A DNA stretch of 64,000 bases from NCBI GenBank assembly GCA_963745835.1, contig CAVUZH010000022.1, positions 32,001 through 96,000 on the forward strand, read 5' to 3'. The notes under the pieces were generated by a model, which searched no databases, was not told the DNA's origin, and saw only the letters and a list, made by a program, of their open reading frames with translations. Numbering within the stretch: the stretch's first letter is position 1; the number at the start of each line of letters is the position of its first letter. A program made the position numbers and the translations under genes. Below, piece after piece: positions 31,919 to 40,873 of this stretch. The stretch is from an uncultured delta proteobacterium (GTDB lineage Bacteria; Desulfobacterota; Binatia; UBA9968).

Positions 31919-32637
31919 TTCCACTGTTCCGCCCCCCAGACCAAAATTGCCACAAGGCTCGCCGTGACCAACCAACCCCAGCCGGGGCTCGCGAGAGCAC
32001 CGGGCACCGCCAAGAATAACGCAGCAAGGCAGACGACCGGCATGGCCCAGCCGCGCATTTCCACCACCAACAGCCCTGCGAAATAGCCCGGCAGAATAAA
32101 CTTTAGCGCTTCTTCAAATCCTGTCGGAAAGCCGAGCGCAACGGCATATCCGAATGCGCTGCCGATAACCCAAACCAAAAAGCTGCTGGCGCCGACGCCT
32201 AGAAAGAAGGCCAAATTTTCATAGCCGACTGTGGACTCAGTAAACCCCGAATCGCCGGCGTCCTGTCGTTCCTTTTGAAACTGCAGATAAGGCACGATGA
32301 AACTGCTGGCGCTAACGACATGAGACGAAAGCAGCAAGTTGAGGCGGTTGACGCCGTGAAAGTATGGCGCCAGAGCCGCGCTCATGGGCAGAAAACGCAA
32401 GTTCATGAGAAAGCCTGCCACCAGCACCTGGACTGACGATTTGCCTTCCGCCAGCGGTCCTAAAACGGCGAATTGCGCCGGACCGGAGTAGACCCAGGCG
32501 GACATCAGGACAATTTCCGCGAATCTCATTCCGTGCGCTTGCGCGGCAATGCCCCAGGCGAGAGAGGATGGCACGAAGGCGATCCAGATCGGAATCGCCG
32601 CTTTCATTCCTTGACGAAAACGGAACGCGAAGCGCAT
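31894..32637 (-). CDS. azlC: AzlC-family permease
   Basis: FRQGMKAAIP, MSAWVYSGPAQF, LMNLRFLPMSAAL. Confidence 0.85.
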   Translation of the reverse strand: MRFAFRFRQGMKAAIPIWIAFVPSSLAWGIAAQAHGMRFAEIVLMSAWVYSGPAQFAVLGPLAEGKSSVQVLVAGFLMNLRFLPMSAALAPYFHGVNRLNLLLSSHVVSASSFIVPYLQFQKERQDAGDSGFTESTVGYENLAFFLGVGASSFLVWVIGSAFGYAVALGFPTGFEEALKFILPGYFAGLLVVEMRGWAMPVVCLAALFLAVPGALASPGWGWLVTASLVAILVWGAEQWKCRASALS

Positions 32638-32750
32638 TGAAACCGCTTAGCTGACGGCGGTTCAAAGATCAACCAAAGGCAGACGCTATCGCTTTCCACT
32701 CTCATTCAAGGACTTTCGCCGGTGTGAAATCTCAGTCACCATGCGCGTCA

Positions 32751-33410
32751 GTAGCAGGTTGCCAACGAACTGCGTGCGGTTTACGCCAAGCGAAACATCG
32801 ATCCCCAAGCCAAGCTTCAGCGGGCCCAACCCCAAGTCTCGGGAGCCGAGGATCTCAGCGGCTATGCTCCGAGGATTGTGGGAGAAGATGTGGAGCTTTT
32901 GGGGTTTGTCAATCGGCAGATTGGAGGACTGGACAAGGAGTTGATGAAGATCGCTCTTGAAGATGGCTCGGCTAAGCGGCTGATGACGATCCCGGGGGTG
33001 GGAGCGGTCAGTGCGGTGGCGATGAGCTGCTGGATTGGCGAGATTGCTCGATTTTCTAATGCGAAAAAGTTGGCCAGCTACTTTGGGTTGGCGCCGCGGG
33101 TGCGCCAGAGCGCCGAGACCGAACGCCATGGACATATCACCAAAGAAGGTAATCGCATGGTGCGCTCTCTGGTGATCCAAGCCGCCCTGGTGCATACGCG
33201 AAGGGGTAAAGGCCCGAGCCGTAAGCATTATTTCGGGGTGCTTAAAAGAAGAGGCAAGCCGATGTGAAAAACTCTGGTTGCAGGCTGCTTAAAAAGATCC
33301 AGAGGCAAGACGCGCGAAAAACGACGAGCTAAGGCGTACTTCCAGTACGTTGCAGCGAGACGTTTTGAGCCGCAACGAAGCATATGGGGTCTTTTTCAGC
33401 AGGCTGTCAG
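32751..33410 (+). mobile_element. MITE-like repeat copy C, interrupted inside its left TIR by a transposase fragment
   Basis: GTAGCAGGTTGC (32751-32762) | insert | TGAAAAACTC...CAGGCTGCTTAAAAAGATCCAG...CTTTTTCAGCAGGCTG (to 33406). Confidence 0.85.
32763..33264 (+). pseudogene. Internal fragment of the IS110-family transposase, lacking both IS ends
   Basis: Matches 38773-39273 except for one substitution seen by eye (GGCCCGAGC vs GGCCCCAGC), plus one extra G at 33264. Confidence 0.92.
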
Positions 33411-33454
33411 TCATATTGAATTCAACCATGGCTTATGCGAACTTGAATTCCCTC

Positions 33455-34843
33455 ATGACCGAACAAGCGACGCACCTGCTCCGCGAGCTGCCGTCAGTGG
33501 ACCGGCTCCTGAAGCATCCCCGTTGCGAAGCGCTGCTGGCCCGATACAACCGCGATTATCTCATTCAGAAATGCCGGGACGCGCTCGATCAAGCCAGGAT
33601 TGAAATCAGGCAAGGTAAAAGCTCCGCCGGAGGCGCAGTTAAAGACGACGCGATCGCAGCGCGAGTTGAGGCGCAAATCGCAACGGAGAGCCAACCGGGT
33701 CTTGTTCGAGTGGTGAACGCCACGGGCACGATCCTGCATACCAATCTCGGCCGGGCGCTCTTGTCCCAGGCTGCAATAGACGCGGTTCTCGGCGTGGCCG
33801 GTTGTCCGGTGAATCTGGAATACGATCTTACCGCGGGAAAGCGCGGCCGGCGCGAAGAAACCGTTGAAAAGTTACTGATTGAGCTGACTGGAGCCGAAGC
33901 AGCGACGGTGGTCAATAACAATGCCGCTGCTGTGCTGCTCGCTTTGAACAGTCTCGCCGAAGACCGGGAAGTCATCGTTTCGCGCGGCGAGCTGATCGAA
34001 ATCGGCGGCGCGTTTCGGATCCCGGAGATCATGGCTAAAAGCAACGCGATCTTAAAAGAAGTCGGCAGCACCAATCGCACGCACCCGGAAGACTACGAGC
34101 GAGCCATTAACGACAAGACGGCTCTGCTGCTAAAAGTGCATACCAGCAACTATAAGGTCGTGGGATTTACCGCCGAAGTCGATTTGGCGCAGCTCGTCGC
34201 CATTGGTAAGGAACACAACGTCCCGGTGATGGAAGATCTGGGCAGCGGCGCGCTCATCGATCTCAGCCGCTACGGGTTGCCGAAAGAGCCGCTCGTTGCC
34301 GAGCGCATCGATGCCGGTGCCGATGTGGTCACTTTCAGCGGCGATAAGATTCTCGGCGGCCCCCAGGCAGGGCTGTTGGTCGGGAAAAAAAGTCTCATCG
34401 GCAGGATGAACAAAAATCATCTGCAGCGCGCGCTGCGCTGCGGCAAATTGACCTTGGCGGCTTTGGAAGGAACGCTTCGGCGCTACCAGCAATCGCCTGA
34501 TATCACCCGGGAGATTCCGACCTTAAGAAGCTTCACCCGCGGTGTCGATGAAATCGGCGAACTGGGCAAACAGCTGTTGCCGAGACTTCAACGCGCGCTC
34601 GGCGACGATTACCGCTTAACTCTGGAAGAATCGACTTCGCAGATCGGCAGCGGCGCGCTACCCACTGAAGAGCTACCAACCGTAGTGATCGCGATTGTCC
34701 ATGAGACGCTCAACGCCAACCGAATCGCCGAAAGCTTTCGCCGCGCCAATCCGCCGATTATCGGCAGGATTCAAGACGAACGTTTTCTGCTCGACTTGAG
34801 AACGATCTTCGATGCCGAGGATTTGGTTCCAAAATTTGACTGA
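33455..34843 (+). CDS. selA: L-seryl-tRNA(Sec) selenium transferase (selenocysteine synthase)
   Basis: LPSVD, VVNATGTILHTNLGRA, VVNNNAAA, SRGELIEIGGAFRIP, EDLGSG, FSGDKILGGPQAG (PLP Lys). The track start at 33350 lies inside the MITE. Confidence 0.96.
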   Translation: MTEQATHLLRELPSVDRLLKHPRCEALLARYNRDYLIQKCRDALDQARIEIRQGKSSAGGAVKDDAIAARVEAQIATESQPGLVRVVNATGTILHTNLGRALLSQAAIDAVLGVAGCPVNLEYDLTAGKRGRREETVEKLLIELTGAEAATVVNNNAAAVLLALNSLAEDREVIVSRGELIEIGGAFRIPEIMAKSNAILKEVGSTNRTHPEDYERAINDKTALLLKVHTSNYKVVGFTAEVDLAQLVAIGKEHNVPVMEDLGSGALIDLSRYGLPKEPLVAERIDAGADVVTFSGDKILGGPQAGLLVGKKSLIGRMNKNHLQRALRCGKLTLAALEGTLRRYQQSPDITREIPTLRSFTRGVDEIGELGKQLLPRLQRALGDDYRLTLEESTSQIGSGALPTEELPTVVIAIVHETLNANRIAESFRRANPPIIGRIQDERFLLDLRTIFDAEDLVPKFD

Positions 34844-34870
34844 GACATCGCGCAAAGACGCAAAGAGATA

Positions 34871-34992
34871 AGGCGGTTCAAGAAGGTTCAAATGCGAGGC
34901 GCGCGAAGAGCGATGAGCGGAACCGTACTCATGTACGTTGACGCGAAATCGGTCGAGCGCAACGAAGCAGATGAGCCTTTTTCAACAGCCTA
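34871..34992 (+). mobile_element. MITE-like repeat copy D
   Basis: AGGCGGTTCAAGAAGG...GAGGCGCGCGA...GTACGTTG...GCAACGAAGCA...CCTTTTTCAACAGCCT. Confidence 0.85.
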
Positions 34993-35101
34993 AGAAAAGT
35001 TGGAAAAAATGCCCTACATCATCGGCACCGCTACGAGATAACTACGAAGTCGAATTTTAAAATGCCAACAGTTCCATAGAAGCAGCAGTCCAAATGTCAT
35101 T

Positions 35102-35224
35102 CAGGCTGTTCAAAAAGGTTCAAATGCGAGGCGCACGAAGGGCGATGAGCGGAAACGTACTCGTGTACGTTGATGCGAAATCGATCAAGCGCAACGAAGC
35201 AGATGAGCCTTTTTCAACAGCCTA
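35102..35224 (+). mobile_element. MITE-like repeat copy E (direct duplicate of D)
   Basis: CAGGCTGTTCAAAAAGG...CCTTTTTCAACAGCCT. Confidence 0.85.
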
Positions 35225-35241
35225 AGAAAAGTTGACAAAAA

Positions 35242-37173
35242 ATGCCTTACATCATCGGCACCGCCGGACACATCGACCACGGTAAAACCAGCCTGATCAA
35301 AGCTTTGACCGGCGAGGACACCGACCGGCTCAAGGAAGAAAAGGAGCGCGGCATTTCCATCGATTTGGGTTTTGCCCAACTCGATCTCGGCGACGGCAAT
35401 CTCGCCGGAGTTGTCGACGTTCCCGGCCATGAGCGCTTCATCAAGAACATGCTGGCGGGCGCGCACGGCATCGATCTGGTGCTCTTTACCGTTGCCGCCG
35501 ACGACGGCGTCATGCCGCAGACCGAAGAACACCTCGACATCGTTCACTTGCTCGGCATCAAGGTAGCCGTCTTCGTGATCACCAAAGCGGACCTGGTTTC
35601 GCAGCCGCGCATTGCCGAAGTGGAAGAGGAAATCAACATCTTGACTCTCGGAACCGTTCTGGAAGATTCGCCGATCATCGCGGTTTCCTCAGCCACCGGC
35701 CAGGGGCTCAGTGAGCTCAAGCAGCTTGTTTCTCAATCATTGAAGTCTATCGATAAACCGGCGCCGAGCGGCTACTTCCGCCTCCCGGTGGACCGCGCTT
35801 TCGTGTTGCAGGGCCATGGCGTAGTGGTGACCGGCACGGCGCGCAGCGGCGAGATCAGGACCGGCGATCGGGTGCGTTGCCTGCCCGGAGAGCAAATTTT
35901 TCGCGTGCGCAGCCTGCAGGTGCACGGAGAATCTGTCGAGCTTGCCGGCTGGGGCCAACGGGTGGCGCTGAATCTCACCGGACCCGATACCGCCGAAGTC
36001 GCGCGCGGCCACGTCATCTGTCACGAGAAGATCTCGCTGACTTCAAATCGCTTCGACGCCTACTTGGAAGTCCGTCCGGCGGCGCGCAAGGGCATCAAGA
36101 ACCATCAGAACGTGAGGGTCCATTTGGGGACCGCCGAACGGCTTGGCAAAGTCATCATCCTCGGCGAAAGGGACCATATCGAGCCGAAGCAATCGGCGTA
36201 CTGCCAGATCACGCTGGCCGAGCCGATCCTGGCTTTGCGCGGCGATCATTTCATTCTCCGCGATGAAACCGCGCAACGGACACTCGCCGGCGGCATGGTG
36301 ATCAACCCATGGGCCAGAAGACATAAGCGCTCCGACGATCTGCGCGACAAACTCGAAGCGCTACACCGCGGCGACATCACCCAACTGACGGAAGCGTTCC
36401 TGGAAGAAAGCGAAGCGTTTGCCTTGCCGCTGGAATCCATTTACCAGTTCCTCGATTGCCGAGAGGAACTGATTCGCAGCTCCATCGACAAAATGAAAAA
36501 TGTCCGCGCGGTCAGCGCGGAGGGCGAGAAAGTCTACACCACCGAGCCCAAATGGCAGCGTCTCAAAGAGCAGATTTCCAAGATCCTCAAGGATTTCCAC
36601 GCAACCCATCCGCTGGTTCCGGGCATGGATATGGAAGAGCTGCGCGGCAAGCTCGCCTACGAGCTTTCGCCCAAAGTCTTCCGGCTGGTGATCGACGGAC
36701 TGATCGGTGAACGGCTGATCGCCAAGGAAGAAAACCTGCTGCGGTTAGCCCAGCATAAACTTCAGCTTGGCGGTCAAGACAAGTTGCTGATGGAGCGAAT
36801 AAAGAAAATCCTTGCCGAACACGAGATGGCGCCGCCGGAGCTGAAACAGATCGAAAAAGACGCGGCGGTGCCGCGCGCGAAATTGGCCGAGGTGCTGCGC
36901 CTGCTCGAAAGAGAGCGGTCGGTGGTCAAAGTAGCTACCGATCTGTATTTCCTATCTAGTTGTGTCGACAAGGTTAAGAATCTGCTTTGCACGCACCTCG
37001 CCGAGCAGGGTGAAATATCGGCTGCCACATTTCGTGACCTGCTGGGATCAAGCCGAAAATATACCATTGCGCTATTGGAACATTTCGATCGAGAAGGCGT
37101 GACTCTGAGGGTCGGCGACGTTCGGCGCCTGAAAGCCGCTTCGGTAACTGAAAAGCGTGGCTCAGCGCATTGA
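35242..37173 (+). CDS. selB: Selenocysteine-specific translation elongation factor
   Basis: [42 protein letters not shown]-terminal SRKY.I.LLE.FDR winged helix. Confidence 0.97.
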
Positions 37174-37207
37174 ATTGAGTTTGCGATCGAACTACACTCA
37201 CAGGTCT

Positions 37208-38263
37208 ATGATGCTCGGAAATAAAAAAGCCGTTCGGCTGACGCAGTCAGTCAAAGCCGCGGGTTGAGCCGCTAAGCTCGGCCCTGCCGACCTCGTGCAA
37301 GTTTTGCACGATCTGCCAAAGTTCAACCACCCGGACATGTTGGTCGGGACGGAGACCTCCGACGACGCCGGAGTCTTCCGCTTGCGGCCGGATCTCGCAA
37401 TCGTCAACACGGTCGATTTCTTCACGCCGATTGTCGATGACCCGTATACCTTCGGACAGATCTCGGCGACCAATTCGCTCAGCGACGTCTACGCCATGGG
37501 CGGTGAGCCCAAGACATGCCTGAACCTCGTCTGTTTTCCAAAAGGCAAGATGGATATCGAAATCCTGGGAGAGATCCTCAAAGGCGGCGCTGATAAGGTC
37601 AAGGAAAGCGGCGCGGTGATCATCGGCGGTCACAGCATCATCGACGAAGAAATCAAATACGGTCTGGCCGTGACCGGGACCATCCATCCCGATAAGATCT
37701 ACCGCAATGTCGGCGTGCAGGAAGGCGACGCGCTGATTCTAACCAAACCTCTCGGCACCGGCATCATCACCACGGCTCTCAAGAAAGGTAAAGCTGCCGA
37801 ACAAAGCGTCGATCAAGCCGTTCGGTCGATGACCACGCTCAACGCCACGGCGTCTAACGTGATGCGCAAATTTGCCGTGCACGCCTGCTCGGATATAACC
37901 GGCTTTGGCATCCTTGGTCATGGTTTGGGAATGGCCAGCGGCAGCGGTGTGACTCTGGTGATCGAATCGGCCAAGCTGCCGCTTCTGCAAGATGCCACCC
38001 ATTTAGCCGAGAAAGGCTACATCACCGGCGGCTGCAAACGTAATCGCGAGTTTTTGCAGGATAAAATATTCATCGAAAACTCGATCCGTGAGGGGCTTAT
38101 CGAAGTAGCCTTGGACCCGCAAACCTCGGGCGGACTGCTGATAGCCGTCGCCAACCGACATGCATCACAGCTTCTTGAAGAGCTTAAGAGCGCAGGTATC
38201 GACGCGGCAACGCAAGTCGGCTATGCCACCTCGCTGCAGAAATCCTGGATACGGCTCGTCTGA
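37208..38263 (+). CDS. selD: Selenide, water dikinase, selenocysteine-containing
   Basis: MMLGNKKAVRLTQSVKAAG-U(TGA 37265-37267)-AAKLGP in frame with the track ORF at 37295; DDAGV, TVDFFTPIVDDP, SDVYAMGG, LTKPLGTG, DPQTSGGLL. Confidence 0.95.
37268..37311 (+). promoter_or_regulatory. Putative bacterial SECIS element
   Basis: After the UGA: TCGGC-cct-GCCGA (37278-37290), then an 8-bp stem TCGTGCAA-gtt-TTGCACGA (37293-37311) with a G-first apical loop 33 nt after the UGA. Confidence 0.7.
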
Positions 38264-38359
38264 ACCATCCGTTAGCAGGTTGCTGATCTTATAAACGGAA
38301 TGGCCTCCGCGCGACCGGCTATGGTACACCGGCGGAGACAAAACCTTAGGAGGCCAGCG

Positions 38360-39376
38360 ATGGAACATTTTGTTGGTATCGATTTACACAAGTACGTATC
38401 ACAATTGGCGGTGTTGAGGGAAAGCCGATCTCCTTCACAGTTGCGTTTGGCGAATGACGTTGTGGCGGTGGAACGGGTTTTAAAGAAACTTCCCAAGGGG
38501 AGCAAGATAGCGCTAGAGGCGATGGGTTCATGGTGGTGGATGGTGGAGCTAGCGCAAAAGACCGGCCACGAAGTGTTTTTGTCCCACCCCAAGCAGACCA
38601 AGGCGATCGCGTCAGCGCGGTTGAAGTCCGATAAGGTCGATGCTTTGATGTTGGCCAAGTTACTTAAGGCCGATCTGCTTCCCACGGTGTGGATCCCTCC
38701 TGAAAACCAACGTCATATTCGCGAGCTTCTGACCCACCGGGCGCGCCTGGTGCGTCAACGAACCGCTGTGATCAACGAACTGCGTGCGGTTTACGCCAAG
38801 CGAAACATCGATCCCCAAGCCAAGCTTCAGCGGGCCCAACCCCAAGTCTCGGGAGCCGAGGATCTCAGCGGCTATGCTCCGAGGATTGTGGGAGAAGATG
38901 TGGAGCTTTTGGGGTTTGTCAATCGGCAGATTGGAGGACTGGACAAGGAGTTGATGAAGATCGCTCTTGAAGATGGCTCGGCTAAGCGGCTGATGACGAT
39001 CCCGGGGGTGGGAGCGGTCAGTGCGGTGGCGATGAGCTGCTGGATTGGCGAGATTGCTCGATTTTCTAATGCGAAAAAGTTGGCCAGCTACTTTGGGTTG
39101 GCGCCGCGGGTGCGCCAGAGCGCCGAGACCGAACGCCATGGACATATCACCAAAGAAGGTAATCGCATGGTGCGCTCTCTGGTGATCCAAGCCGCCCTGG
39201 TGCATACGCGAAGGGGTAAAGGCCCCAGCCGTAAGCATTATTTCGGGGTGCTTAAAAGAAGAGGCAAGCCGATTGCCCGGGTGGCGGCGGCCAACAAACT
39301 GTTGGGCGTGATTTTTCATATGCTCAAAGAACGCATCGACTATCATGAATTCCTCAGGCGTAGCGACGCACAGTGA
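38360..39376 (+). CDS. IS110-family DEDD transposase / bridge recombinase (338 aa)
   Basis: AGGAGG RBS; VGIDLHK (D), ALEAMG (E), KSDKVDA (D,D); TIPGVG; YFGLAPRVRQSA (catalytic Ser); ITKEGN; ARVAAANKL. Confidence 0.96.
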   Translation: MEHFVGIDLHKYVSQLAVLRESRSPSQLRLANDVVAVERVLKKLPKGSKIALEAMGSWWWMVELAQKTGHEVFLSHPKQTKAIASARLKSDKVDALMLAKLLKADLLPTVWIPPENQRHIRELLTHRARLVRQRTAVINELRAVYAKRNIDPQAKLQRAQPQVSGAEDLSGYAPRIVGEDVELLGFVNRQIGGLDKELMKIALEDGSAKRLMTIPGVGAVSAVAMSCWIGEIARFSNAKKLASYFGLAPRVRQSAETERHGHITKEGNRMVRSLVIQAALVHTRRGKGPSRKHYFGVLKRRGKPIARVAAANKLLGVIFHMLKERIDYHEFLRRSDAQ

Positions 39377-39524
39377 GTCCGTACTTTTTCATGGTCGCAA
39401 GACCGAGTTGCTGATTGGGCAGCTGTGCCTCTCCAGAGGGAGAACCGCCGGATTTAAGATCATGCGCTTTTAAAGGGCGCGAAGAGATGAGTGGGTCGCT
39501 ACCCATACGTTGATCAGCCCGGCG
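39368..39524 (+). ncRNA. Bridge RNA / seekRNA of the IS (target-binding and donor-binding loops); ends approximate
   Basis: Guides CTTTTTCA (39384-39391) and GTTGCTGA (39407-39414) match the target; TAAGATCA (39455-39462) and AGAGATGA (39483-39490) match the circle junction; enclosing stems GCACAG/CTGTGC and CGCCGG/CCGGCG. Confidence 0.88.
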
Positions 39525-39643
39525 ATCAGAGCCGAAAAGGGGAATACCAGGAGTCATATTAAACCGAGATCGTGCGTTATAAGCGAAATACGGAGGTCTT
39601 TTTTTTAGAAATCATTGCAAAACAAAATCAGGCTGTAACCCAC

Positions 39644-39671
39644 TTGACTGAGCCGTTCCGTTTAGAGATGA
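39644..39671 (+). promoter_or_regulatory. -35 half of a circle-junction promoter
   Basis: TTGACT (39644-39649), 17 nt, then GATGAA in the chromosome but GATGAT once the right and left ends are joined. Confidence 0.6.
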
Positions 39672-39850
39672 AAAAGCCCATAGGCTTCGTTGCTCTCGAC
39701 CGATTGCGCGTCAACGTGCAGGAGCACGCCTCCGCTTATCGATCTTCGCGCGCATGGATCTTTTTGAGCAGCCCGCCACCGAACTCAGCAACCTGCTAAA
39801 CTTCTACACTTCCCGAAAATTCCTGGTTCGGCTGAGCACCAAATTAGATT

Positions 39851-40873
39851 TCATTTGCCACTTGCCAGCACCGATTTGATAAAGCCACTCTGGTCCAACT
39901 CGCGTACTAATTGGCTATCCGCGAAATCCTCGGGTTTCGCTCCTCTGGCTTTTGGAAACTGTTTCTCCAATTCTTGTAACAAGCTGGCGATCCCCGCCGG
40001 ATATGGAGGGACACTGAAACCATTTTTGATGCTCATCTCGTATGTCTCTTCCAGCACTTCGCGGTCGTCGCTGCGAAAATACTTTCCCATGGTTTTCATG
40101 GCAAAGGCCTTGTCCTTCTGCCCGCGAACCGCGCCTTCAATATAAGCTCGGAGAAAACGGCGCACGACATCCTCGTTGCCTTTGAGATACCTGCGGGTAG
40201 TCACCAGACCATTGACGTGATACTCGACATCGAGTTTTGACAGGTCCATCAAGTCCTTGAGCTTAACTCTTTTCGCTTGCAGTGTGGCCGGCGGGGAGAT
40301 CGCCGCCGCATGAACTTTGCCGGTCATCATGGCAGTCACCGTTTCCGCCGGCCCGCCGGTTTGAACCATGGTGACGTCGCGCTCCGGATCGAGGCCATGA
40401 AGGCGCAACGCGATGCGTGAGGCTAGATCCGATTGAGTACCGAACCGGGTCGTGCCAAATACTTTGCCTTTTAAATCTTCCATACGGCTAATGTTAGGCT
40501 GGCTGAAGATCCACCAGTTAAATTTCTTCGCGATCGTCGCGATCACGACCGTATCCGTGCCCGACAGGGCAGCTTGGATCGGACCCGCGCCGCCAGCTTG
40601 AATGATCGGCAGCTCTCCCGACAACATCGCCTGCAGCGCCAGCGAGCTTCCGGGAATACTGATGAGTTCGACATTGAGCCCGTTTTTTTCGTAGTAGTTT
40701 CCTTCTTTGGCAAACCAGATGGACATCTGCGCCGCCGATGCCGAGCCGCCGCCGCTTCGTAAATTTTCGAGCTTCTTCTCCTGAGCAAGCAAGCCCGATG
40801 ACCCAGAGATTGCAGACAAAATCACAGTGCACATTATCAGTCGATGGATGATCATACCTTCTCTCCTCATCAT
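39851..40873 (-). CDS. ABC substrate-binding protein (NMT1/SsuA-like)
   Basis: WFAKEGNYYEKNGLNVE, DLKGKVFGTTRFG. Confidence 0.88.
   Translation of the reverse strand: MMRREGMIIHRLIMCTVILSAISGSSGLLAQEKKLENLRSGGGSASAAQMSIWFAKEGNYYEKNGLNVELISIPGSSLALQAMLSGELPIIQAGGAGPIQAALSGTDTVVIATIAKKFNWWIFSQPNISRMEDLKGKVFGTTRFGTQSDLASRIALRLHGLDPERDVTMVQTGGPAETVTAMMTGKVHAAAISPPATLQAKRVKLKDLMDLSKLDVEYHVNGLVTTRRYLKGNEDVVRRFLRAYIEGAVRGQKDKAFAMKTMGKYFRSDDREVLEETYEMSIKNGFSVPPYPAGIASLLQELEKQFPKARGAKPEDFADSQLVRELDQSGFIKSVLASGK

What the first reader, a model, noticed from the sequence alone, without database searches (positions are those of the whole stretch)
38272..39799. IS110/IS1111 element programmed to insert into the terminal repeat of a MITE (mobile element nested in a mobile element)
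Seen: removing 38287-39671 rebuilds an intact repeat end, TTAGCAGGTTGC-TGA-AAAAGCCC. Among the repeat ends I compared, only the two with GTTGC-TGA-AAAA carry IS DNA; ends with GCTGC, GGTGC, CCTGC, GCTGT or an altered core are empty. Known: IS621 targets REPs and IS4321/IS5075 target Tn21 TIRs. Inference: this IS uses an abundant intergenic MITE as a safe harbour, disables its TIR, and may drive TIR divergence as escape.
Basis: partly seen in the sequence, partly recalled or inferred. Interest (0 to 1): 0.8.

Follow-up and report, generated by a model that had tools for sequence, protein, structure and literature searches.

The report
RNA-guided IS that targets a repeat's end
This is a 1.4-kb IS1111-type insertion sequence whose own guide RNA is written to match the end motif of an abundant small intergenic repeat, so it lands there almost every time; it is a clean natural example of a mechanism that is already known.

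Summary
Window 38287-39671 is a 1385-bp IS110-family element of IS1111 layout: a 338-aa DEDD transposase, a 295-bp 3' non-coding region and 12-bp subterminal inverted repeats. Removing it rebuilds the end of a ~130-155-bp interspersed repeat with about 167 copies in this genome.

The 3' region holds two loops of bridge/seekRNA architecture. CTTTTTCA and GTTGCTGA match the target GTTGC-TGA-AAAAG. TAAGATCAT and AGAGATGA match the IS ends.

All 4 pieces of IS DNA in the genome sit at GGTTGC-TGA-AAAA. None of 28 GCTGCTGAAAAAG sites is occupied. In other contigs 13 of 14 close relatives sit in the same repeat family. Copies whose guide reads GCTGC sit at GGCTGC or GGCTAC ends, and more distant homologues have other guides and matching other flanks.

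The core interpretation is therefore supported, as a new member of a known kind (IS4321/IS5075 in Tn21 inverted repeats, IS621/ISPpu9 in REPs). Three points are not shown: that the repeat is a true MITE, that insertion disables it, and that the IS drives divergence of the repeat ends.

The two 500-bp internal IS fragments are probably assembly artefacts at polymorphic insertion sites.

The parts
38272..38286 (+). Left 15 bp of the interrupted repeat (TTAGCAGGTTGCTGA): the left half of the target plus the shared TG(A) core.
   Evidence: matches the uninterrupted paralogue C19:495253-495377
38287..39671 (+). The IS, 1385 bp, counted with one copy of the TGA at its right end.
   Evidence: full-length second copy at C19:502586-503962 with the same junctions
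38287..38305 (+). Left end: 7-nt extension TCTTATA, then the 12-bp subterminal inverted repeat AAACGGAATGGC (38294-38305).
   Evidence: conserved in relatives
38360..39376 (+). Transposase/recombinase gene, 338 aa. TAGGAGG lies 6 nt upstream of the ATG.
   Evidence: Pfam PF01548 (E 4.9e-18) and PF02371 (E 5e-24). NCBIfam NF033542, 246 bits against a cut-off of 140. IS621 structure 8wt6, E 4.9e-14, with the D, E, D, D and Ser positions aligned.
39377..39671 (+). 3' non-coding region of 295 bp. It encodes the presumed bridge/seekRNA and the right end of the IS.
39384..39391 (+). Target guide 1, CTTTTTCA: complementary to the top strand of the target, TGAAAAAG.
39393..39404 (+). Conserved hairpin GGTCGCAAGACC between the two target guides.
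   Evidence: all 5 stem pairs kept in 8 of 8 sequences while the loop varies
39407..39414 (+). Target guide 2, GTTGCTGA: identical to the top strand of the target's left half plus core. This is the position that reads GCTGCTGA in the other allele.
39455..39463 (+). Donor guide 1, TAAGATCAT: the reverse complement of ATGATCTTA, the circle junction running into the IS left end.
   Evidence: The G003 homologue has GAGATCA opposite its own left end TGATCTC.
39464..39480 (+). Conserved hairpin GCGCTTTTAAAGGGCGC between the two donor guides.
39483..39490 (+). Donor guide 2, AGAGATGA: identical to the IS right end.
39644..39649 (+). TTGACT, a -35-like hexamer 17 nt before the terminal GATGA. It may be half of a junction promoter in the excised circle. 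This is inference only.
   Evidence: the G003 homologue has TTGACA at the same place. Not tested.
39652..39671 (+). Right end: subterminal inverted repeat GCCGTTCCGTTT (39652-39663), then AGAGA plus TGA.
   Evidence: 11 of 12 positions complementary to 38294-38305
39672..39799 (+). The remaining 128 bp of the interrupted repeat. It has AAAAGCCCATAGGCTTCGTTGC at its start, then the inner right motif CTTTTTGAGCAGCCC, then a degenerate outer motif TCAGCAACCTGCTAA.
32763..33264 (+). A 502-bp internal piece of the same IS (IS positions 487-987, 99.8% identical) lying exactly between GGTTGC and TGAAAAAC in the outer end motif of another repeat copy. Probably the remnant of a polymorphic full insertion.
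   Evidence: a contig of run X5 joins this site's left flank to a complete IS left end, and contigs of X1 and X6 skip the 502 bp.

Best explanation
The element is an IS1111-type member of the IS110 family. Its DEDD/serine recombinase is directed by an RNA transcribed from the 295-bp region downstream of the transposase gene.

That RNA has two internal loops:
- The first carries CUUUUUCA and GUUGCUGA on either side of a small hairpin. These would pair with the two strands of the 13-bp target GTTGC-TG(A)-AAAAG.
- The second carries UAAGAUCAU and AGAGAUGA on either side of another hairpin. These would pair with the joined IS ends, AGAGA-TG-ATCTTA, in the excised circle.

Recombination at the shared TG(A) core would then place the IS, always in one orientation, inside the terminal motif of a family-wide, mostly intergenic, MITE-like repeat of 130-155 bp.

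In this genome the guide reads GTTGC. That matches a minority variant of the motif, found mainly in a third, outer copy at the repeat's right end. Sister lineages in other samples read GCTGC and sit in the majority GGCTGC left end.

Shown here: the anatomy, the guide matches, the occupancy pattern, guide-flank covariation, and population polymorphism of insertions. Inferred from published work on IS621, ISEc11 and their relatives: that the RNA is made, that it binds the protein, and that it directs the recombination.
For: Protein family:
- Pfam PF01548 and PF02371.
- NCBIfam 'IS110 family RNA-guided transposase', 246 bits against a cut-off of 140.
- Alignment to the IS621 structure with the DEDD and Ser positions conserved.

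Guides:
- Four exact matches of 8-9 nt, in the expected order and each including the core.
- 0 of 500 shuffles of the non-coding region give all four.

Occupancy in this genome:
- 4 of 4 pieces of IS DNA lie at GGTTGC-TGA-AAAA.
- 4 of 13 GTTGCTGAAAAA sites are occupied, against 0 of 28 GCTGCTGAAAAAG sites.

Relatives:
- 14 contigs from other assemblies encode relatives of 82% amino-acid identity or more. 13 show repeat-end flanks.
- 9 loci show both the second target guide and the left flank (own, C19, L032, L033, L034, L036, L037, L002, L003). 7 match perfectly over 8 nt and 2 differ at one base.
- The four loci with guide GTTGCTGA (own, C19, L032, L037) all sit at GGTTGCTGA.
- Of the loci with guide GCTGCTGA, L033 sits at GGCTGCTGA and L034 at GGCTACTGA.
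- The same-genus homologue in G003 (76% identical) has guides TAGCCTGA and CAAAGGGGAC and flanks TAGCCTGA and GTCCCCTTTG. Its donor guide also follows its own left end.
- In the alignment of 8 non-coding regions the scaffold hairpins are conserved and only the guide segments vary.
- Copies with the GTTGC guide form one derived clade inside copies with the GCTGC guide.

Activity: contigs of public runs join the IS ends to three further GGTTGC-TGA-AAAA sites, namely the two 'fragment' sites and C18:461052, which is empty in this assembly.
Against: - No RNA data. Rfam 15 gave no match in 38000-40000.
- The minimum-free-energy fold of the non-coding region is no better than shuffles (z +1.13 for 295 nt; z -1.12 for 154 nt).
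- Each guide match taken alone is weak: about 10% of shuffles give an 8-mer match in any one category.
- 9 sites with the 12-mer are empty, so a match is not sufficient.
- One relative, L036, sits at a site with one mismatch to each guide, and its right flank does not look like the repeat.
- The C-terminal motif reads GLAPRVRQSA (Ser-Ala), not the usual S/T-G.
- The right terminal extension is 5 nt (8 with the TGA), not the 3 nt described for IS1111 members.
- The related contigs come from a few soil and rhizosphere data sets and are not independent.
Confidence: 0.9

Rival explanations
1. The target is not a MITE. It is a REP/BIME-like or functional intergenic repeat (structured RNA, terminator or protein-binding site). 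On this reading the case is simply another REP-targeting IS110-family element, and 'a mobile element nested in a mobile element' is the wrong description.
For: - No target duplication beyond a possible TA.
- No transposase gene between pairs of end motifs in this genome.
- The repeat is old and widespread: found in 33 of 36 genomes of the same family and 4 of 5 of a second family (G012 and G018 among them are unpublished).
- A third copy of the end motif is unusual for a MITE.
- The element folds better than shuffles as single-stranded DNA (z -2.41, 3 of 200 shuffles as good).
Against: - The size (127-155 bp), the inverted ends of about 19 bp, about 167 dispersed copies and the intergenic location are all typical of MITEs.
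- REPs are much shorter (35 bp in Pseudomonas putida, passage read in PMC12288879).
- No RAYT search was done.
Confidence: 0.3
2. The recombinase protein alone recognises the palindromic repeat end, by sequence or by structure, and the matches in the non-coding region are coincidental.
For: Each 8-nt match alone occurs in about 10% of shuffles. The target lies in an inverted repeat that could form a structure.
Against: - All four matches together occur in 0 of 500 shuffles.
- A single-base difference in the guide tracks a single-base difference in the flank in 6 loci.
- Homologues of 72-76% identity have entirely different guides and matching different flanks.
Confidence: 0.04
3. The copies arose by duplication or homologous recombination of a block made of repeat plus IS. 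Targeted insertion was not involved.
For: Repeats are substrates for recombination. The region at window 34830-35242 holds a tandem duplication that includes a repeat copy.
Against: - Sequence outside the 15-bp end motif differs at every site.
- The host repeat copies are of different kinds, some a left end and some an outer motif.
- An uninterrupted paralogue exists, and contigs consistent with the empty form of one site were seen.
Confidence: 0.02
4. Side question: the two internal IS pieces of about 500 bp are real. They would be abortive or secondary recombination products (for example at internal TGATC pseudo-cores), or captures of degraded IS DNA at a cut target. They would not be assembly artefacts.
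For: - One boundary of each piece lies at an internal TGATC, the sequence of the real junction core.
- Both pieces have the canonical orientation.
- The C3 piece has TGA at both junctions.
Against: - Both pieces are close to 500 bp (501 and 492 bp) and both target halves are almost intact. That is what a consensus polisher working in 500-bp windows would leave at a site where most reads lack the IS. The window size is recalled, not checked.
- Contigs of public runs show a complete IS left end at both sites, and contigs consistent with the empty form at one.
- The C22 junctions lack the TGA pattern expected from core-mediated exchange.
Confidence: 0.3

Closest known systems
[quoted passage not shown] Partridge & Hall 2003: seen only as a title in the reference list of PMC11187229.
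   Same: An IS1111-type element with subterminal inverted repeats inserts at one position and in one orientation inside the terminal inverted repeat of another mobile element.
   Different: The host here is a small non-coding repeat of unproven mobility, with about 167 copies per genome. It is not a large resistance transposon. The transposase is only distantly related to named IS: the best tblastn identity in the plasmid collection is below 60%, and 36-42% for the eight records listed.
IS621, ISPpu9/ISPpu10 and ISPa11: IS110/IS1111-family elements that insert into REP sequences. For ISPpu9 I read the abstract and introduction of PMC12288879. That IS621 and ISPpu10 insert in REPs is recalled. 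For ISPa11 the passages I read (PMC11187229) speak only of its target.
   Same: An abundant intergenic repeat serves as the landing site, and the recombinase is RNA-guided.
   Different: IS621 and ISPpu9 carry the guide RNA upstream of the gene and lack subterminal repeats. REPs are about 35 bp, whereas the repeat here is 127-155 bp with three copies of its end motif.
ISEc11 / ISXne4 and ISEc21 / ISMch6: natural redirection of the seekRNA (PMC11187229, sections 9, 10 and 13 and passages read).
   Same: The order of the guides is the same: the top-strand complement lies 5' of the bottom-strand match, and the two overlap at the insertion point. Related transposases carry different guide segments and have different targets.
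   Different: Here there is also a one-base retargeting between two variants of the same repeat end (GCTGC to GTTGC). The published pairs share only a few target bases.
The IS1111-attC group (ISKpn4, ISPst6, ISPa25), which targets attC sites of integron cassettes (PMC11187229, section 9 read).
   Same: The target is a structured recombination site of another mobile system, selected by the seekRNA.
   Different: A different target class and different hosts.

Membership tests
IS110 family (DEDD RNA-guided transposase) | N-terminal RuvC-like DEDD domain | tested here: met
   PF01548, E 4.9e-18. GID, EA and D..D align with IS621 chain 8wt6_A.
IS110 family (DEDD RNA-guided transposase) | C-terminal PF02371 domain with the conserved serine | tested here: met
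   PF02371, E 5e-24. The Ser of GLAPRVRQS aligns with the Ser of IS621 GLTPRRYES.
IS110 family (DEDD RNA-guided transposase) | Curated family model above its cut-off | tested here: met
   NF033542, 246.3 bits against a cut-off of 140.
IS1111 subgroup | Long non-coding region downstream of tnp | tested here: met
   295 bp downstream against 73 bp upstream. Criterion from PMC11187229, section 6.
IS1111 subgroup | Subterminal inverted repeats of 11-13 bp | tested here: met
   38294-38305 AAACGGAATGGC against 39652-39663 GCCGTTCCGTTT: 11 of 12 complementary. Criterion.
IS1111 subgroup | Terminal extensions of 7 (or 6) bp on the left and 3 bp on the right | tested here: inconclusive
   The left extension is 7 nt (TCTTATA). 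The right is 5 nt (AGAGA), or 8 nt if the shared TGA is counted.
IS1111 subgroup | Transposase of 330-350 aa with the motif GL-P----S/T-G | tested here: inconclusive
   The length of 338 aa fits. The motif reads GLAPRVRQSA, that is S-A and not S/T-G (criterion).
IS1111 subgroup | Transposase falls inside the IS1111 clade in a phylogeny | not tested
   No set of reference ISFinder sequences was on hand.
Bridge RNA / seekRNA guidance | [quoted passage not shown] | tested here: met
   CTTTTTCA at 39384-39391 and GTTGCTGA at 39407-39414, overlapping at TGA. Criterion.
Bridge RNA / seekRNA guidance | A second loop matching the IS ends (donor) | tested here: met
   TAAGATCAT and AGAGATGA. The first of these covaries with the left end in the G003 homologue.
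Bridge RNA / seekRNA guidance | Guide and target covary among relatives | tested here: met
   7 of 9 loci match perfectly over 8 nt and 2 differ at one base. Four different guide sequences occur with four matching flanks.
Bridge RNA / seekRNA guidance | The RNA is expressed, binds the transposase and is required for transposition | not testable with these tools
   No RNA runs were examined and no Rfam family matched.
MITE (the host repeat) | Short, non-coding, many dispersed copies | tested here: met
   127-155 bp, 167 non-overlapping nhmmer hits, 119 of them outside open frames of 200 aa or more.
MITE (the host repeat) | Terminal inverted repeats | tested here: met
   TAGCAGGCTGCTGAAAAAG against CTTTTTGAGCAGCCTGCAA, plus a third, outer copy.
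MITE (the host repeat) | Target-site duplication | tested here: inconclusive
   Only TA at both ends, which may belong to the inverted repeat. Based on 26 full copies inspected.
MITE (the host repeat) | An autonomous IS with the same ends | tested here: not met
   15 motif pairs lie 0.3-6 kb apart. The longest open frames of 7 of them were read and none looks like a transposase. This was a crude scan of this genome only.
MITE (the host repeat) | Presence/absence polymorphism of single copies | not tested
   Only a complex replacement at window 34830-35242 was seen.
REP/BIME (alternative for the host repeat) | Palindromic units of about 20-40 bp associated with a RAYT transposase | not tested
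   The unit length of 127-155 bp argues against this. No RAYT search was done.

The most novel reading that the evidence does not exclude
The IS and the repeat are a co-evolving pair, a parasite of a parasite. Under this reading a single C-to-T change in the guide moved one IS lineage from the repeat's majority left end (GGCTGC; 52 left ends carry GCTGC-TGAAAA in this genome) to a minority variant found mainly in a redundant third copy of the end motif. Insertion into that outer copy leaves the inner inverted pair of the repeat intact. The outer motif would then act as a landing pad or decoy, and variant classes of the repeat ends across a whole bacterial family would be shaped by RNA-guided insertion.
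Probability: 0.1. Interest if true: 0.6.

Novelty: new member of a known kind. Interest (0 to 1): 0.33.

Why it matters
It adds an uncultured-soil-bacterium example to the RNA-guided IS110/IS1111 recombinases. The whole logic can be read from sequence alone: the target loop, the donor loop, a natural one-base retargeting between two variants of one repeat, and insertion polymorphism in public metagenome runs.

It could serve as a compact natural test set for guide-target rules, with a 13-bp target, a TG core and tolerated mismatches at the outer position. It also warns annotators in two ways. IS copies inside repeats break repeat models. Internal IS 'fragments' of about 500 bp in long-read metagenome assemblies may be consensus artefacts.

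It does not change what is known about the mechanism.

Tried and rejected
- **Rfam.** A scan of 38000-40000 at E up to 1 gave nothing, so no curated RNA family names the non-coding region or the repeat.
- **Single-sequence folds.** Folds of the non-coding region were no better than shuffles. I relied on guide matches and the alignment instead.
- **Target duplication of the repeat.** Nothing beyond TA in the 26 full copies inspected.
- **Autonomous partner of the repeat.** There were 15 pairs of end motifs 0.3-6 kb apart. I read the longest open frames of 7, by eye and without a Pfam scan. They looked like ordinary genes or had no clear identity, not transposases.
- **'Escape by divergence'.** Per-column information of the repeat alignment shows the end motif among the most conserved parts. 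That alignment mixes both strands of a near-palindromic element, so the test is weak. I drop the idea as unsupported, not as refuted.
- **Core-mediated deletion for the two IS fragments.** The C3 junctions fit this. The C22 junctions do not: TGAT is missing on the left and there is an extra G on the right.
- **The C19 copy as an unpolished duplicate.** Rejected in part. At least two of its 47 substitutions (IS positions 35 and 124) are also seen as variants in contigs of public runs, so it is a real diverged copy. Its 8 one-base deletions and 2 in-frame TAG make it a pseudogene or a poorly polished region.
- **Read laying.** The inside of the fragment (32822-33082) had no or little cover in X1, X5 and X6. 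I draw nothing from that. The joints that skip the fragment have short sides (22 and 25 letters) and are weak. I could not tell whether the loose end at 39669 in X7 is the empty form of the window's own site or the C19 paralogue.
- **Other limits.** The search for related loci uses exact peptide words, so only close relatives were found. The 47 weaker loci (22-34% identity) and the distant ones were not analysed.
Full report
**The element**

The stretch 38272-39799 is a small repeat interrupted by an insertion sequence. The junctions read GGTTGCTGA|TCTTATAAACGG on the left and GTTTAGAGATGA|AAAAGCCC on the right. TGA is therefore present at both junctions. The IS is 1385 bp (38287-39671) if one TGA is counted with it.

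It encodes one protein of 338 aa (38360-39376), with TAGGAGG 6 nt upstream of the ATG. That protein carries:
- Pfam DEDD_Tnp_IS110 (E 4.9e-18) and Transposase_20 (E 5e-24);
- NCBIfam NF033542 'IS110 family RNA-guided transposase', 246 bits against a cut-off of 140;
- an alignment to the solved IS621 recombinase (8wt6, E 4.9e-14) in which the D, E, D, D and serine positions are conserved.

The upstream leader is 73 bp and the downstream non-coding region is 295 bp. A 12-bp subterminal inverted repeat lies 7 nt from the left tip (AAACGGAATGGC, 38294-38305). Its partner (GCCGTTCCGTTT, 39652-39663) lies 5 nt plus the TGA from the right tip.

These are the features that Siddiquee et al. give for the IS1111 group (PMC11187229, section 6 and passages). 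Two small departures are noted: the right extension is longer than 3 nt, and the motif is GLAPRVRQSA where S/T-G is usual.

**The repeat**

Removing the IS gives a 143-bp element. Three rounds of nhmmer find 117, 198 and 281 hits. These collapse to 167 non-overlapping copies, of which 74 are near full length.

The consensus has three copies of one motif of about 19 bp:
- a left end, TAGCAGGCTGCTGAAAAAG;
- an inner right copy in inverted orientation, CTTTTTGAGCAGCCTGCAA;
- in about half of the copies, an outer right copy whose reverse complement reads TAGCAGGTTGCTGAAAAACTCTGG.

Other properties:
- 119 of 167 copies do not overlap any open frame of 200 aa or more, whereas random 150-bp stretches are 76% covered.
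- The family occurs in 33 of 36 other genomes of the same taxonomic family searched and in 4 of 5 of a second family. It was not found in 19 genomes of a third (G012 and G018 in that tally are unpublished).
- A homologue of the IS protein was found in only 3 of the 61 genomes at E up to 1e-40.

The repeat is therefore old and the IS sporadic. I could not show that the repeat is a true MITE. No duplication beyond TA was seen, and no transposase gene lies between end motifs in this genome.

**The guides**

In the non-coding region I looked for exact matches of 7 nt or more to the rebuilt target and to the joined IS ends, leaving out the last 30 nt. Five matches came up, and four of them are of 8-9 nt:
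- CTTTTTCA (39384-39391), the complement of TGAAAAAG;
- GTTGCTGA (39407-39414);
- TAAGATCAT (39455-39463), the complement of ATGATCTTA;
- AGAGATGA (39483-39490).

The fifth, TTATAAG at 39577, is a 7-nt match to the donor that I did not interpret.

The first two flank the hairpin GGTCGCAAGACC and overlap at TGA in the target. The last two flank the hairpin GCGCTTTTAAAGGGCGC and overlap at TGA in the circle junction.

Any one category reaches 8 nt in about 10% of shuffles, but all four together in 0 of 500. The order, with the top-strand complement first, is the one reported for IS1111 seekRNAs (PMC11187229, section 9).

**Occupancy in this genome**

blastn finds four pieces of this IS and no more. 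They are the window copy, a diverged copy on C19 (55 differences including 8 one-base deletions, and two in-frame TAG), and two internal pieces. All four lie at GGTTGC-TG(A)-AAAA.

| Site class | Occupied | Empty |
|---|---|---|
| 13-mer GTTGCTGAAAAAG, 0 mismatches | 2 | 2 |
| 13-mer, 1 mismatch | 2 | 66 |
| 13-mer, 2 mismatches | 0 | 496 |
| 12-mer GTTGCTGAAAAA | 4 | 9 |
| GCTGCTGAAAAAG | 0 | 28 |

The last two rows give p = 0.007.

Among intact repeat ends, GCTGC-TGAAAA is the common left end (52 of the 140 left ends scored). GTTGC-TGAAAA is rare, with 3 left ends and 4 of the 65 outer motifs scored. This genome's IS is therefore tuned to a minority variant.

**Relatives and covariation**

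Scans of the genome and metagenome collections returned 14 contigs that encode relatives of 82% amino-acid identity or more. These are L009, L010 and L026 and L032-L041 and L045. Every one shows at least one junction, and 13 of 14 have flanks of this repeat family. For five of them (L010, L026, L040, L041, L045) only the left motif of 17 nt or less is visible. L036 is the exception.

Nine loci show both the second target guide and the left flank:

| Loci | Guide | Left flank |
|---|---|---|
| own, C19, L032, L037 | GTTGCTGA | GGTTGCTGA |
| L033 | GCTGCTGA | GGCTGCTGA |
| L034 | GCTGCTGA | GGCTACTGA |
| L036 | GCTGTTGA | GGCTGCTGA |
| L002 (G003, same genus, 76% identical) | TAGCCTGA | TAGCCTGA |
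| L003 (G045, a degraded copy) | ATTAATTGA | ATTAATTGA |

Further points from the G003 homologue:
- Its first target guide, CAAAGGGGAC, matches its right flank GTCCCCTTTG.
- Its donor guide, GAGATCA, follows its own left end TGATCTC.
- Its two junctions share only TG, so the core is probably the dinucleotide TG.

An alignment of eight non-coding regions shows conserved hairpins and linkers, with variation confined to the guide segments. In a small tree of the transposase genes the four copies with the GTTGC guide form one derived clade inside the GCTGC lineages. This fits a single C-to-T retargeting (12 sequences, FastTree).

**Activity and the odd fragments**

Two of the four pieces are internal segments (IS positions 487-987 and 408-899, 501 and 492 bp). 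They lack both IS ends, yet they sit exactly between the two target halves.

I laid Logan contigs of four public runs on window 32300-40100. They show:
- a 642-nt contig of X5 that joins the left flank of the window fragment site to a complete IS left end;
- joints in X1 and X6 that skip exactly the 502 bp (short sides of 22 and 25 letters, so weak);
- a contig of X6 that joins the left flank of the C3 fragment site to the IS left end;
- a contig of X1 that joins the IS right end to the right flank of C18:461052, a perfect 12-mer site that is empty in this assembly.

Complete copies therefore occur at both 'fragment' sites and at a fifth site, and insertions are polymorphic. The assembly's contamination estimate of 9.3% fits a mixture of strains.

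I think the 500-bp remnants are most likely consensus artefacts of polishing in 500-bp windows at sites where most reads lack the IS. The window size is recalled, not checked. A real origin is not excluded: one boundary of each piece lies at an internal TGATC. I give it about 30%.

**What it is and how new**

This is an RNA-guided IS1111-type element that uses the end motif of an abundant intergenic repeat as its landing site.

The kind is known:
- IS4321/IS5075 in Tn21 inverted repeats (title seen in a reference list);
- ISPpu9 in REPs (PMC12288879, abstract and introduction read);
- natural redirection of seekRNAs (PMC11187229, passages).

One full-text search for IS110 together with 'miniature inverted-repeat' and 'target' listed 13 papers. 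Their titles and abstract openings, and the IS110 passages of one of them (PMC3718332), showed no report of an IS110-family element targeted to a MITE. That is one search only, and most subscription papers are not in the library.

The transposase has no close named relative in the plasmid collection: identity is below 60%, and 36-42% for the eight records listed.

I file it as a new member of a known kind, of modest interest. The points worth keeping are the one-base guide switch between two classes of the same repeat end, and the warning about fragment artefacts.

Noticed in passing
window 32763-33264; G000 C3:491052-491541: Two internal pieces of the IS, about 500 bp each and lacking both IS ends, lie exactly between the two halves of the target. 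Contigs of public runs show complete IS left ends at both sites. This is likely a window-based polishing artefact at polymorphic insertions, but one boundary of each piece lies at an internal TGATC.
   Followed up: partly
window 39564-39605; G000 C3:1165302-1165343, C14:246785-246826, C13:760177-760218: A 42-bp segment of the IS non-coding region (90% identical) also occurs inside an unrelated 1.5-kb IS present in three near-identical copies (C3:1165165-1166683 and two others). That IS has a 468-aa open frame on the opposite strand and direct repeats of about 15 bp at its flanks. Why two different IS share this segment is unexplained.
   Followed up: partly
window 34830-35242: A tandem duplication that includes a repeat copy and the first codons of the selB-like gene (ATGCC.TACATCATCGGCA occurs twice). 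Contigs of runs X6 and X7 replace these 411 bp by 40 other letters, so the region differs between close strains.
   Followed up: no
L009 from about 1340 to its end; L023 from about 130 to 200: A further shared sequence (CCATGCGTGGCACGGCAC...GCCGTCACAC...TTTGCAATGCG) abuts a truncated copy of this IS in L023 and lies next to the interrupted repeat in L009. It may be the end of yet another mobile element that inserts after GCTG.
   Followed up: no
G000 C13:575704-576690 (L006): A second, distant IS110-family gene in the same genome (35% identity, E 4e-52). Its guides and target were not examined.
   Followed up: no
window 35242-38263: The IS and its host repeat lie just downstream of two ORFs, 35242-37173 and 37295-38263. 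From their translations I read these as SelB-like and SelD-like; neither was scanned against a family library. A convergently oriented ORF at 39851-40873 looks like a periplasmic binding protein, also unscanned. The insertion therefore lies between two gene ends.
   Followed up: no
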